Shown here: positions 52,286-53,702 of the stretch, piece after piece
How positions within the stretch are numbered: position 1 is the stretch's first letter
Layout: each line of letters opens with the position of its first letter
Assembly: GCA_000092065.1 (NCBI GenBank)
Contig: CP000592.1
Origin: Ostreococcus lucimarinus
Lineage: Eukaryota
DNA: 64,000 nucleotides
Strand: one strand, 5' to 3'
The notes under the pieces: generated by a model
Database searches by the model: none
Told to the model about the DNA's origin: nothing
What the model saw: the letters and a program-made list of their open reading frames with translations, nothing else
Position numbers and translations under genes: made by a program

Positions 52286-52435
52286 TTATTTTCTGACCGC
52301 ACCAGGTGTTTCGTAATTCTCCATGAACCACTTCACTGTGCTCGCCATGGCTTCGTCAAACGGCGTAAACTTGAAATCGGGAAGGTATTTGCGGAGTTTC
52401 GCATTGTTCGCGGTCTTCTTGAATTGACCGTCAGC
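52286..52435 (-). CDS. GDP-L-fucose synthase exon 6 ([49 protein letters not shown], then stop). Intron 5 is 52436..52493, 58 nt.
   Basis: The six exons sum to 960 nt (319 aa plus stop), colinear end to end with animal and plant GDP-fucose synthases. Confidence 0.8.
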
Positions 52436-52493
52436 CTATTTCGCGTGAGTTCGTGAGTGATTTAATTGAATTTATTCGCCGCATAAAACGTAC

Positions 52494-52588
52494 CTTCGTG
52501 GTGTCAAAGTTGACTTCACCTTGGAAGTCGAGCGCCTTAGCGACAGAGCGCGCGACGTCTGCGATGCTAATTTCGTCTTCCTCACCAA
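52494..52588 (-). CDS. GDP-L-fucose synthase exon 5 ([32 protein letters not shown]). Intron 4 is 52589..52704.
   Basis: TAG acceptor preceded by a CTTGACTGAC branch. GTACGT donor. Matches [32 protein letters not shown]. Confidence 0.8.
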
Positions 52589-52704
52589 CTAAGAAGGGAA
52601 GAATGATCGCCGAGGTCAGTCAAGAAATTATTCGCAGGGCAGCAAATAAATAAATATTCGCGTCGTCGAAGAGCGCAACGCATCACCCGGGCGTCTCTTC
52701 GCAC

Positions 52705-53121
52705 CTGAAAGAATGATAGGGTCCGCCTCTTGGTATTCACGCATCGTCCAGATCATCAAACGCGCGAGATCGTTGGAGTAGATGAATTGTCGCAGCGGCG
52801 TGCCCGATCCCCAGATGGTGAAGGGCTCACCCTTTTGCTTGCACAAGTAGCCTCGGTGGATGAGTCCGGGAATAACATGGCTGTTATCGAGATGAAAGTT
52901 GTCATGCTTGCCAAAAATATTCGTCGGAATGACCGCGGTGAAGTTACAGCCGTGCTGGGCCTTGTACATGCGGTTTTGGACGTCCACCATGCGCTTGGCG
53001 TACGCGTAACCTTCGTTCGAGAAGTGCGGCGGCCCGTCGTGAATCATGGTTTCGTCAATCGGAAACGTCGTCTTGTCCGGAAAGATGCACGTCGAAAGGC
53101 AAGAGACGAGCTTTTCGACCC
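52705..53121 (-). CDS. GDP-L-fucose synthase exon 4 ([51 protein letters not shown]...EADPIILS). Intron 3 is 53122..53190, 69 nt.
   Basis: Contains the SDR catalytic YxxxK (YAYAK). GTGCGA donor at 52704. Confidence 0.85.
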
Positions 53122-53190
53122 CTTTTCATCGAGTAAAGAATATCGGACGTCAGTCGAAACTCAACAAATGCCGTCAAACGGGACGCGTAC

Positions 53191-53263
53191 CTCGCTTATG
53201 ACACTCTTGGAAGATGTTGTCATTCATCGCTATGTTGTTTCTCCAAAATTCCACCTTGTATTT
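53191..53263 (-). CDS. GDP-L-fucose synthase exon 3 (KYKVEFWRNNIAMNDNIFQECHKR plus G). Intron 2 is 53264..53360.
   Basis: CAG acceptor and GTACGC donor. Matches [23 protein letters not shown]. Confidence 0.8.
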
Positions 53264-53360
53264 CTGTCGTGATGAGCGTGCATCGGTCAGTCCTCGATCG
53301 CTGGCGAGATTTCAATCACAACGAGCGTATTTTTCGTCGTCGAGCGCGCGTGTTACGCAC

Positions 53361-53468
53361 CATATTCGCGAACAGCCCTCCCACCTGCGCCGCGAGGTGG
53401 ATCACGTGCGTCGGCTTGTACTTTTCAAACATCGCCGCCGTGGACGCCGGGTCGCATAAATCCGCATC
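53361..53468 (-). CDS. GDP-L-fucose synthase exon 2 ([36 protein letters not shown]). Intron 1 is 53469..53585.
   Basis: TAG acceptor and GTGCGT donor. Colinear with human FX ([36 protein letters not shown]). Confidence 0.85.
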
Positions 53469-53585
53469 CTATGCGTGGAAACGGCATCGTTCCGTCAGTC
53501 ATTTCTCTCGTCCTTCGCCGCGTCGATCGCTCGTGCACGTCTTCGAGCGACGAGACGCTCGCTCTTCGCGCCGCACGTCACGCAC

Positions 53586-53702
53586 TTTGGACGAGGCGAA
53601 TATCCACTCCTCGTTCTCCGGTCGTTCGCCCGCGATGACTTCGCGGATGGCGCTTCCGACGAGACCGCTTCCACCGGTCACGAGCACCACCTTTTTCGTC
53701 AT
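53586..53702 (-). CDS. GDP-L-fucose synthase (GDP-4-keto-6-deoxymannose 3,5-epimerase-4-reductase, FX/GER1), exon 1 of 6.
   Basis: MTKKVVLVTGGSGLVGSAIREVIAGERPENEEWIFASSK (Rossmann GxxGxxG motif). GTGCGT donor. Confidence 0.85.

What the first reader, a model, noticed from the sequence alone, without database searches (positions are those of the whole stretch)
52286..53702. Six-exon GDP-L-fucose synthase in an AT-rich island among intronless genes
Five introns of 58-117 nt lie within 1.4 kb, embedded in the lowest-GC part of the window. The 540-nt spacer at 51743-52285 is about 40% GC. Most neighbours have 0-1 intron. In Mamiellales, atypical low-GC, intron-rich regions mark outlier chromosomes or regions, so this gene may sit in or derive from such a compartment. 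Alternatively its introns are retained for regulation. Exon boundaries fall at the same positions where the protein aligns colinearly with animal FX.
Basis: partly seen in the sequence, partly recalled or inferred. Interest (0 to 1): 0.5.

Follow-up and report, generated by a model that had tools for sequence, protein, structure and literature searches.

The report
Annotated five-intron GDP-fucose synthase gene
This is the already annotated GDP-L-fucose synthase gene of the tiny marine alga Ostreococcus lucimarinus: its six-exon structure is correct and unusually intron-rich for this genome, but it lies on an ordinary chromosome, not in one of the odd low-GC "outlier" regions.

Summary
Its 319-aa product is identical to XP_001420794.1 of Ostreococcus lucimarinus CCE9901, and two independent intron-free contigs carry all five predicted junctions.

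The outlier-compartment idea fails.
- The gene lies on a 539-kb record. Fourteen neighbours are colinear with O. tauri chromosome 12, and several also flank the gene in two other Mamiellales lineages.
- Four of the five introns carry the GTGCG/GACTGAC signals typical of introns outside chromosome 2.
- GC3 of the coding sequence (0.69) is the window median. Its low GC comes from codon positions 1 and 2, that is, from a conserved protein sequence.
- The 41%-GC spacer is a 3'-3' convergent spacer. That class is AT-rich across the window, though this one is unusually long (543 nt).

Five introns is genuinely unusual among neighbours with 0-2 introns. The cause is at least partly retention.
- All five positions are shared with O. 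tauri.
- Intron 1 is shared with an uncultured Mamiellales lineage that keeps only that intron.
- Intron 2 is shared with Coccomyxa, and intron 4 with three animals.
- Micromonas pusilla has lost all of them.

Verdict: an ordinary, already known gene, with a minor comparative note on intron retention.

The parts
52286..53702 (-). GDP-L-fucose synthase (FX/GMER) gene, start codon to stop codon; six exons, five introns; product 319 aa = XP_001420794.1
   Evidence: exact protein match; human FX structure 4e5y, E=1.9e-145, colinear over residues 6-313; Pfam Epimerase, 2e-52; intron-free contigs.
53586..53702 (-). Exon 1 (117 nt, 59.8% GC); encodes the GGSGLVG dinucleotide-binding motif
53469..53585 (-). 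Intron 1 (117 nt, 62% GC, phase 0, before D40); GTGCGTGA ... GACTGACGG ... AG. Position shared with O. tauri and with an uncultured Mamiellales lineage (L006, L019).
53361..53468 (-). Exon 2 (108 nt, 61% GC)
53264..53360 (-). Intron 2 (97 nt, 56% GC, phase 0, before K76); GTGCGTAA ... GACTGACCG. Position shared with O. tauri and Coccomyxa subellipsoidea.
53191..53263 (-). Exon 3 (73 nt, 38% GC)
53122..53190 (-). Intron 3 (69 nt, 46% GC, phase 1, in G100); GTACGCGT ... GACTGACGT. Seen only in Ostreococcus among the ten gene structures sampled.
52705..53121 (-). Exon 4 (417 nt, 53.5% GC); encodes the catalytic stretch LSTC ... YAYAK ... GKHDNF
52589..52704 (-). Intron 4 (116 nt, 50% GC, phase 1, in V239); GTGCGAAG ... 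GACTGACCT. Same position and phase in amphioxus, Komodo dragon and a snail; Chlamydomonas eustigma has an intron 2 nt away.
52494..52588 (-). Exon 5 (95 nt)
52436..52493 (-). Intron 5 (58 nt, 38% GC, phase 0, before A271); GTACGTTT, no ACTGAC branch motif. The only one of the five that looks like the small AT-rich type. Seen only in Ostreococcus in the sample.
52286..52435 (-). Exon 6 (150 nt including the TAA stop, 48% GC)
51743..52285 (.). Convergent 3'-3' intergenic spacer (543 nt, 41% GC); the longest convergent spacer in the window and the site of its lowest local GC. The O. tauri counterpart is 572 nt at 44% GC with no detectable sequence or ORF conservation.
   Evidence: no Rfam match; no blastn/tblastn conservation, no copy elsewhere in the window.
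50819..51742 (+). Downstream convergent neighbour: intronless 307-aa protein of unknown function, XP_001420630.1
53749..54936 (+). Upstream divergent neighbour: single ORF encoding a CCCH/RING zinc-finger protein (RNF113A-like); the true start may be an internal ATG, since 356-aa forms are common

Best explanation
The feature is the vertically inherited nuclear gene for GDP-L-fucose synthase, the NADPH-dependent 3,5-epimerase/4-reductase of the short-chain dehydrogenase family that makes GDP-L-fucose from GDP-4-keto-6-deoxymannose. It belongs to Ostreococcus lucimarinus CCE9901 and lies near the middle of an ordinary 539-kb chromosome. It is transcribed from the minus strand and spliced at five canonical spliceosomal introns. 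It is intron-rich because it has kept old introns that sister lineages lost, not because it belongs to a special genomic compartment: at least three of the five positions predate the genus. The apparent AT-rich island has two ordinary causes. First, the protein is strongly conserved, which holds GC low at codon positions 1 and 2 while silent sites are typical. Second, this genome is generally GC-rich at 5'/divergent ends and AT-rich at 3'/convergent ends, and here that is exaggerated by an unusually long convergent spacer. Shown: the gene model, identity, splicing, synteny, intron positions and composition. Inferred: enzyme activity (from homology), and retention rather than gain for introns 3 and 5.
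For: Identity:
- Exact match to XP_001420794.1 on a 538,963-bp record.
- E=1.9e-145 and a colinear alignment to human FX structures.
- Pfam Epimerase, 2e-52.

Splicing:
- Two independent intron-free contigs carry all five junctions.
- Seven further environmental or isolate genomic copies have the same structure.

Ordinary chromosome:
- The O. tauri ortholog lies on CAID01000012.2 with all five introns at identical positions.
- Fourteen neighbours are colinear.
- Several of the same neighbours flank FX in other Mamiellales lineages.

Intron type:
- GTGCG../GACTGAC in introns 1-4, matching the non-chromosome-2 consensus GTGCGTG/GACTGACG (PMC2483917).

Age of the introns:
- Intron 1 is shared with the L006/L019 lineage.
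- Intron 2 is shared with Coccomyxa.
- Intron 4 is shared with three animals.
- My estimate of chance coincidence is about 5% for each comparison set (about 9 positions among about 957 slots, times 5 introns).

Composition:
- GC3 0.694 is the window median, while GC1 (0.52) and GC2 (0.38) rank 3rd and 5th lowest of 35.
- Convergent spacers run 28-59% GC and divergent spacers 50-77%, with 11 of 12 at 58% or more.
- O. tauri intron GC falls 5' to 3' in the same way (0.61, 0.60, 0.57, 0.38, 0.37); the O. lucimarinus series is 0.62, 0.56, 0.46, 0.50, 0.38.
Against: - Introns 3 and 5 have no counterpart in the ten gene structures sampled, so they could be Ostreococcus-lineage gains.
- Intron 5 (58 nt, 38% GC, no ACTGAC) resembles the small AT-rich BOC1 type.
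- FX introns average 52% GC, against 58-75% for four other introns in the window.
- The 543-nt spacer is four or more times longer than most convergent spacers here, its length is conserved in O. tauri, and its content is unexplained.
- I could not see whole-chromosome GC or intron-density profiles. Assignment to chromosome 12 of O. lucimarinus is inferred from record length and O. tauri synteny, not read from the record.
- The bacterial NCBIfam equivalog model scores 232 bits, below its 500-bit cut-off.
Confidence: 0.85

Rival explanations
1. One reading: the gene lies in, or was relocated from, a Mamiellales outlier compartment (the BOC1 low-GC region of chromosome 2, or the small outlier chromosome 18), and its introns and low GC are marks of that origin.
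For: - Local GC is low at the 3' end and in the spacer.
- Five introns is far above the level outside chromosome 2. From the counts in PMC2367439 I derive about 0.18 introns per mapped EST cluster.
- Intron 5 is small, AT-rich and lacks ACTGAC.
- The small outlier chromosomes are enriched in sugar-metabolism genes (PMC3491373, Table 2).
Against: - The record is 538,963 bp, and the O. tauri ortholog is on chromosome 12.
- Neighbours are colinear with O. tauri, and part of the neighbourhood is shared with other Mamiellales lineages, so the position predates the split of those lineages from Ostreococcus.
- Four of five introns carry the non-chromosome-2 consensus (PMC2483917).
- GC3 is at the window median.
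- The Micromonas pusilla-type locus is 66% GC, in line with the high GC ('over 59%') reported for Mamiellales other than Bathycoccus (PMC3491373).
Confidence: 0.03
2. The introns are kept by selection because they boost or regulate expression of this gene (intron-mediated enhancement, or regulated splicing).
For: - All five positions are conserved between O. tauri and O. lucimarinus although the intron sequences have diverged to near-random apart from the splice signals.
- In O. lucimarinus, intron number correlates positively with EST abundance, though weakly (R=+0.09; PMC2367439).
- Retaining intron 1 would introduce an in-frame stop (read directly from the sequence), so any unspliced mRNA would be non-productive.
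Against: - No expression data were available here.
- The published correlation is very weak.
- M. pusilla does without any intron in this gene, and the L006/L019 lineage keeps only one.
- No conserved intronic element and no Rfam match was found.
Confidence: 0.25
3. Some or all of the introns are recent gains in the Ostreococcus lineage, for example by introner-like elements, rather than retained ancestral introns.
For: Introns 3 and 5 were found only in Ostreococcus among the ten structures compared. Repeated intron families are reported in Micromonas (abstract of PMC4540971).
Against: - Introns 1, 2 and 4 coincide in position and phase with introns in other lineages.
- The five introns show no similarity to each other or to anything else in the window.
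- They are present in both Ostreococcus species, whose intron and spacer sequences no longer align, so any gain is old.
Confidence: 0.25
4. The retained introns host non-coding RNAs such as snoRNAs, the classic reason for intron survival in intron-poor genomes.
For: Introns 1, 2 and 4 are long enough (97-117 nt). Intron 4 has a GTGATGC ... CTGA arrangement that superficially resembles C/D boxes (read directly from the sequence).
Against: - No Rfam match even at E<=1.
- Intron sequences are only 29-48% identical to O. tauri in a global alignment, and conservation is confined to the splice signals.
- The CTGA is simply part of the GACTGAC branch site.
Confidence: 0.02

Closest known systems
Human GDP-L-fucose synthase (FX / TSTA3 / GFUS; PDB 4e5y, 4b8w, 4bkp)
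   Same: The alignment is full-length and colinear (residues 6-313 against 10-318, one single-residue gap, E=1.9e-145). The GGSGLVG, LSTC, Y-x-x-x-K and HDNF stretches are conserved. The intron in the codon for V239 (phase 1) has the same position and phase as in three animal FX genes.
   Different: Only one of nine animal intron positions is shared, and four Ostreococcus positions are absent from the animal genes. The algal introns are 58-117 nt, against hundreds to thousands of nt in animals.
Ostreococcus tauri GDP-L-fucose synthase XP_022840088.1 (chromosome 12, CAID01000012.2)
   Same: 94% protein identity, all five introns at identical positions and phases, the same neighbours in the same order, and a similarly long AT-rich 3' spacer (572 nt, 44% GC).
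   Different: Intron lengths differ (218, 72, 68, 87, 57 nt). Intron and spacer sequences are not alignable beyond the splice signals.
FX genes of M. pusilla-type contigs (L004/L005) and of an uncultured Mamiellales lineage (L006/L019)
   Same: 77-80% protein identity. Neighbours are partly shared: mitochondrial carrier, DUF7912 (not on the shorter L019 stretch), BolA (not called on L006), CCCH zinc finger, abhydrolase.
   Different: M. pusilla has no intron. The uncultured lineage has only the 5'-most intron, at the Ostreococcus intron-1 position, 184-187 nt long, with GTGAG and CTGAC signals.
BOC1-type genes of Mamiellales big outlier chromosomes
   Same: Several introns in one gene. One intron (intron 5) is small and AT-rich.
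   Different: The chromosome is different, colinearity is conserved, four of five introns have strong consensus splice signals and are 69-117 nt long, and GC3 is typical (PMC3491373; PMC2483917).

Membership tests
GDP-L-fucose synthase (GMER/FX, extended short-chain dehydrogenase/reductase) | Full-length homology to experimentally characterised GDP-L-fucose synthases | tested here: met
   Human FX structures at E=1.9e-145 over residues 6-313; Naegleria enzyme at 5e-118; E. coli GMER at 2e-50. UniRef names the identical protein GDP-L-fucose synthase.
GDP-L-fucose synthase (GMER/FX, extended short-chain dehydrogenase/reductase) | N-terminal Rossmann G-x-x-G-x-x-G dinucleotide-binding motif and NAD-dependent epimerase/dehydratase fold | tested here: met
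   GGSGLVG at residues 10-16 (direct reading). Pfam PF01370 Epimerase at 2e-52, covering residues 6-239.
GDP-L-fucose synthase (GMER/FX, extended short-chain dehydrogenase/reductase) | Catalytic Ser/Cys ... Tyr-x-x-x-Lys ... His residues (roles recalled from the E. coli GMER literature) | tested here: met
   [15 protein letters not shown] and FGKHDNF align with [15 protein letters not shown] and FGPHDNF of human FX. The catalytic roles are from my own knowledge, not tested here.
GDP-L-fucose synthase (GMER/FX, extended short-chain dehydrogenase/reductase) | NCBIfam equivalog model NF047922 (bacterial Fcl) at its curated cut-off | tested here: not met
   232.5 bits against a 500-bit cut-off, although it is the best family at E=7e-69 over the full length. 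NCBIfam models are the ones NCBI uses to annotate bacterial and archaeal genomes, so I do not take this shortfall as evidence against membership of the eukaryotic FX clade.
GDP-L-fucose synthase (GMER/FX, extended short-chain dehydrogenase/reductase) | Enzymatic conversion of GDP-4-keto-6-deoxy-D-mannose to GDP-L-fucose | not testable with these tools
   Needs a biochemical assay.
Mamiellales big outlier chromosome low-GC region (BOC1) | Location within the contiguous low-GC block of the big outlier chromosome (chromosome 2 in Ostreococcus) | tested here: not met
   The record is 538,963 bp and the O. tauri ortholog is on CAID01000012.2. Chromosome 2 carries 489 predicted genes against 325 on chromosome 12 (PMC2367439), so a 539-kb record does not fit chromosome 2; this last step is an inference.
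Mamiellales big outlier chromosome low-GC region (BOC1) | Loss of colinearity between species | tested here: not met
   Fourteen flanking genes are in the same order as in O. tauri, and part of the neighbourhood is conserved in other Mamiellales lineages.
Mamiellales big outlier chromosome low-GC region (BOC1) | Many small (40-65 bp) AT-rich introns without conserved splice or branch motifs | tested here: not met
   Introns 1-4 are 69-117 nt and 46-62% GC, with GTGCG/GTACG donors and GACTGAC branch sites. Only intron 5 (58 nt, 38% GC, no ACTGAC) fits the description (PMC3491373; PMC2483917).
Mamiellales big outlier chromosome low-GC region (BOC1) | Lower GC of the genes themselves, including silent sites | tested here: not met
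   GC3 is 0.694, rank 18 of 35 in the window. Only GC1 and GC2 are low.
Mamiellales small outlier chromosome (SOC) | [quoted passage not shown] | tested here: not met
   The record is 539 kb, the gene is conserved across eukaryotes and it has five introns (PMC3491373, Table 2).
Introner-like / repeated intron families | Sequence similarity among introns, or to other copies in the genome | tested here: not met
   No intron matches another intron or any other part of the 64-kb window beyond 13-18-nt chance words. Only the window could be searched, not the genome.
Intron-hosted snoRNA genes | A conserved structured RNA within the intron | tested here: not met
   No Rfam match at E<=1 in 51500-53800. 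Introns are not conserved with O. tauri outside the splice signals.

The most novel reading that the evidence does not exclude
The 543-nt AT-rich convergent spacer next to the gene may be a functional chromosomal element rather than just long 3' UTRs. Candidates are a very short regional centromere, an origin- or boundary-type element, or an unannotated non-coding transcript. It is the lowest-GC spot in the 64-kb window. Its length and AT-richness, but not its sequence, are conserved in O. tauri. It lies at about 46-48% of the length of a ~540-kb chromosome in both species. This is separate from the more modest reading that FX is a rare multi-intron holdout whose introns were lost from the 3' end in sister lineages.
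Probability: 0.04. Interest if true: 0.6.

Novelty: already known. Interest (0 to 1): 0.12.

Why it matters
As a discovery it matters little.

Two small points may be useful.
- The locus is a clean negative control. Local low GC combined with many introns does not by itself identify an outlier compartment in Mamiellales. Intron signal type, GC3 and synteny separate the two cases.
- FX shows a tidy stepwise pattern of five, one and zero introns across Mamiellales lineages, with the 5'-most intron the last to survive. That matches what 3'-biased, reverse-transcriptase-mediated intron loss predicts (a model I recall from the literature, not tested here).

Because homologous recombination works in O. 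tauri (stated in PMC12636532, citing Lozano et al. 2014), the gene could serve as a compact test case for whether retained introns matter for expression in an extremely streamlined genome.

Tried and rejected
1. snoRNA or other ncRNA in the introns or spacer: no Rfam match in the window at gathering thresholds, and none at E<=1 in 51500-53800. There is no intron or spacer conservation with O. tauri.
2. A hidden small gene in the spacer: the 98-codon ORF 51780-52073 (+) and all other six-frame pieces of at least 15 aa have no tblastn match in the O. tauri spacer. One metagenome gene caller did call a 99-aa ORF there (L017), which I regard as an artefact.
3. Repeat or transposon origin of the spacer or introns: no second copy in the window.
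4. Population data as a test of constraint: seven environmental or isolate copies differ at only about 0.1-0.2% of sites, which is too little to compare exons, introns and spacer. No intron presence/absence polymorphism was seen.
The same protein worked through its cluster id P0121.
6. Palenik et al. 2007 (PMC1863510) is not held, so chromosome lengths and genome-wide exon statistics could not be quoted from it.
7. Centromere literature for Ostreococcus: nothing usable was found.
8. My spliced 405-aa model for the PSMD12-like neighbour, and the 566-aa ORF at 39988-41688, are not in the protein collection as exact sequences, so those two models remain unverified.
9. A link to the O. tauri 'viral immunity chromosome' paper: its only mention of GDP-L-fucose concerns a viral GDP-mannose dehydratase, not this host gene.
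Full report
**What is there**

On the minus strand, a CDS runs from 53702 to 52286. The spliced product is a clean 960-nt ORF encoding 319 aa. Several lines identify the protein as a GDP-L-fucose synthase:
- Pfam Epimerase at 2e-52.
- An end-to-end alignment with one single-residue gap to the solved human enzyme, E=1.9e-145.
- Conserved GGSGLVG, LSTC, YAYAK and HDNF stretches.

The bacterial NCBIfam equivalog is the best family hit, but it scores below its cut-off (232 against 500 bits). NCBIfam models are the ones NCBI uses to annotate bacterial and archaeal genomes, so I do not count this against membership.

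**Source and prior knowledge**

The spliced protein is letter-for-letter XP_001420794.1/ABO99087.1, a 'predicted protein' of Ostreococcus lucimarinus CCE9901 that UniRef names GDP-L-fucose synthase. It sits on a 538,963-bp record. Other ORFs of the window match proteins of the same record:
- The WD40 protein XP_001420789.1.
- The 307-aa neighbour XP_001420630.1.
- XP_001420791.1.
- The carrier XP_001420635.1.
- Alpha-tubulin XP_001420620.1, which has one intron.

**Splice junctions**

Two independent assembled contigs encode the protein without interruption: Logan SRR5626492_76697 and JGI 3300016723 Ga0182085_1087341. They are 960/960 and 956/958 nt identical to the concatenated exons, and each contains all five junctions exactly as predicted. 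I infer from their lack of introns that these are transcript assemblies. Seven further genomic copies, from metagenomes and ~540-kb assemblies, have the same structure and differ at only about 0.1-0.2% of sites.

**Is it in an outlier compartment? No.**

Published work describes the Mamiellales outlier regions as follows:
- A contiguous low-GC part of the big outlier chromosome (chromosome 2 in Ostreococcus). It has many 40-65-bp AT-rich introns without recognisable motifs and little colinearity between species.
- A small ~150-kb outlier chromosome (18 in O. lucimarinus), made up mostly of species-specific genes (PMC3491373; bioRxiv 10.1101/2025.04.21.649811).

This locus does not fit that description, for four reasons.

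1. *Chromosome.* The locus lies on a 539-kb record. Its O. tauri ortholog (94% identity) is on CAID01000012.2, chromosome 12.
2. *Colinearity.* Fourteen flanking genes are in the same order in O. tauri. Several of them (mitochondrial carrier, DUF7912, BolA, CCCH zinc finger, abhydrolase) also lie near FX in M. pusilla-type contigs and in a third, uncultured Mamiellales lineage. The location is therefore old.
3. *Intron type.* Introns 1-4 have GTGCG/GTACG donors and GACTGAC branch sites. Four of the 16 GACTGAC matches in the window fall in this gene, against 8.3 matches expected by chance for the whole window. Irimia and Roy found ACTGAC in 87% of EST-confirmed introns outside chromosome 2, whereas the commonest chromosome-2 sixmer reached only 4.6%. 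They give GTGCGTG and GACTGACG as the non-chromosome-2 consensus (PMC2483917). Only intron 5 (58 nt, 38% GC, no ACTGAC) looks like the small AT-rich type.
4. *Silent sites.* GC3 of the CDS is 0.694, rank 18 of 35 in the window, which is the median. GC1 (0.52) and GC2 (0.38) are among the lowest. The low GC of the coding part therefore reflects the amino-acid composition of a highly conserved enzyme, not a compositional compartment.

**The 'AT-rich island'**

The window (58.5% GC) is a mosaic ranging from 45% to 71% GC per kb. There is a simple regularity:
- Convergent 3'-3' spacers are AT-rich, at 28-59% GC.
- Divergent 5'-5' spacers are GC-rich, at 50-77% GC, with 11 of 12 at 58% or more.

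The FX gene shows the matching trend. Its first two exons and introns are 56-62% GC; everything downstream is 38-54%, ending in a 41% spacer. O. tauri intron GC falls in the same way (0.61, 0.60, 0.57, 0.38, 0.37).

The spacer 51743-52285 is unusual only in its length: 543 nt, against 25-127 nt for most convergent spacers. It holds the lowest 200-nt GC stretch of the window and most of the lowest 500-nt stretch. The gene itself is 52.9% GC, and two other 1.5-kb stretches are practically as AT-rich.

The O. tauri counterpart spacer is 572 nt at 44% GC. It shows no nucleotide or six-frame similarity to this one. The spacer has no Rfam match and no copy elsewhere in the window. I could not determine what fills it. 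Long 3' UTRs are the default assumption.

**Is five introns unusual? Yes.**

In the O. tauri annotation of the syntenic 21 kb, 14 of 16 complete genes are intronless, one has a single intron and FX has five. My scan of the window suggests about 40 genes. Single introns occur in a large TOG-like gene, alpha-tubulin (confirmed against XP_001420620.1), a PSMD12-like gene, a Costars gene and a few more. RPS25 probably has two.

The published EST data agree. Ten of 68 mapped clusters on chromosome 12 contain introns. Outside chromosome 2, I derive 276 introns in 1,534 clusters from the reported counts (PMC2367439). In O. tauri, 19% of genes have introns (PMC4378021).

**Where the introns come from**

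I mapped exact exon structures for ten FX genes and projected them onto one protein alignment.

| Ostreococcus intron | Position and phase | Also found in |
|---|---|---|
| 1 | before D40, phase 0 | O. tauri; uncultured Mamiellales lineage (L006, L019), where it is the only intron |
| 2 | before K76, phase 0 | O. tauri; Coccomyxa |
| 3 | in G100, phase 1 | O. tauri only |
| 4 | in V239, phase 1 | O. tauri; amphioxus, Komodo dragon, a snail (Chlamydomonas eustigma has one 2 nt away) |
| 5 | before A271, phase 0 | O. tauri only |

- In the L006/L019 lineage, the metagenome gene callers had mis-called the N-terminus because of the single intron.
- The M. pusilla-type gene is intronless.
- With about 957 possible slots and nine positions per comparison set, I estimate a chance match for any of the five introns at about 5% per set.

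At least three of the five introns therefore predate the genus, and intron richness is at least partly retention. The sister lineage keeps only the 5'-most intron. That fits 3'-biased, reverse-transcript-mediated intron loss, which is an inference from a model I recall rather than something tested here.

The introns share no similarity with each other or with the rest of the window. They are not conserved in sequence with O. tauri beyond the splice signals. This argues against introner-type repeats and against hosted RNAs.

**What remains open**

- Whether retention is selected, for example for expression, or merely not yet lost.
- Whether introns 3 and 5 are old or were gained.
- What occupies the long spacer.

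The most novel reading not excluded is that the spacer is a functional chromosomal element. It lies at about 46-48% of a ~540-kb chromosome in both species. I give this only a few percent.

**Verdict**

The compartment interpretation is rejected. The feature is an ordinary, already annotated gene, with a modest comparative point about intron retention.

Noticed in passing
whole window; table: Intergenic GC depends strongly on gene orientation. Convergent 3'-3' spacers are 28-59% GC (most 28-46%). Divergent 5'-5' spacers are 50-77% GC, with 11 of 12 at 58% or more. This alone produces many small AT-rich dips in the window.
   Followed up: partly
window 48024-48120 (-): ARAGORN predicts a 97-nt tRNA-Arg(TCG) in or at the edge of the GC-rich divergent spacer between the PSMD12-like and Kelch genes. 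Rfam found no tRNA at gathering threshold anywhere in the window, so this is probably a false positive.
   Followed up: partly
window 46461-47820 (-); O. tauri L001 15878-17065: The PSMD12/PCI-domain gene appears to have a canonical 142-nt intron in O. lucimarinus (47651-47510, GTGCGTG ... GACTGACGA). The O. tauri ortholog is annotated as one uninterrupted 395-aa ORF. My spliced 405-aa model is not in the protein collection, so this is unverified.
   Followed up: partly
window 31800-32640 (-): A small gene starting [15 protein letters not shown]...KKWSKGKMKEKANNQVLF looks like ribosomal protein S25. It seems to be split by two introns carrying GACTGAC at 32312 and 32026. My second junction is not yet in the right frame.
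   Followed up: partly
L006 7838-8999 and L019 5670-6828: In two metagenome contigs of an uncultured Mamiellales lineage (58-60% GC), the FX gene was mis-called by prokaryote-style gene finders as 332 aa with a spurious N-terminus and as 275 aa truncated. The cause is a 184-187-nt intron after codon 40. The corrected product is 324 aa.
   Followed up: yes
window 34247-34640: This is a second long (394 nt) AT-rich (45% GC) convergent-type gap. It contains a GACTGAC at 34415 (-) next to a short coding-like segment at 34665-34793 (-), so it may hide a small spliced gene rather than being a pure spacer.
   Followed up: no
window 36025-39798 (-): The 1257-aa WD40-repeat gene (XP_001420789.1) has the lowest GC (48%) and lowest GC3 (0.51) of the 34 coding segments of at least 600 nt scored in the window. 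That is lower than FX, and it has no intron. Low GC and intron number are therefore uncoupled here.
   Followed up: partly
window 50819-51742 (+): The exact 307-aa neighbour protein is listed in 1,118 blocks of the public assembly collection, including several ~540-kb contigs. This O. lucimarinus genotype is therefore very widespread in marine metagenomes, with about 0.1-0.2% divergence at this locus.
   Followed up: partly
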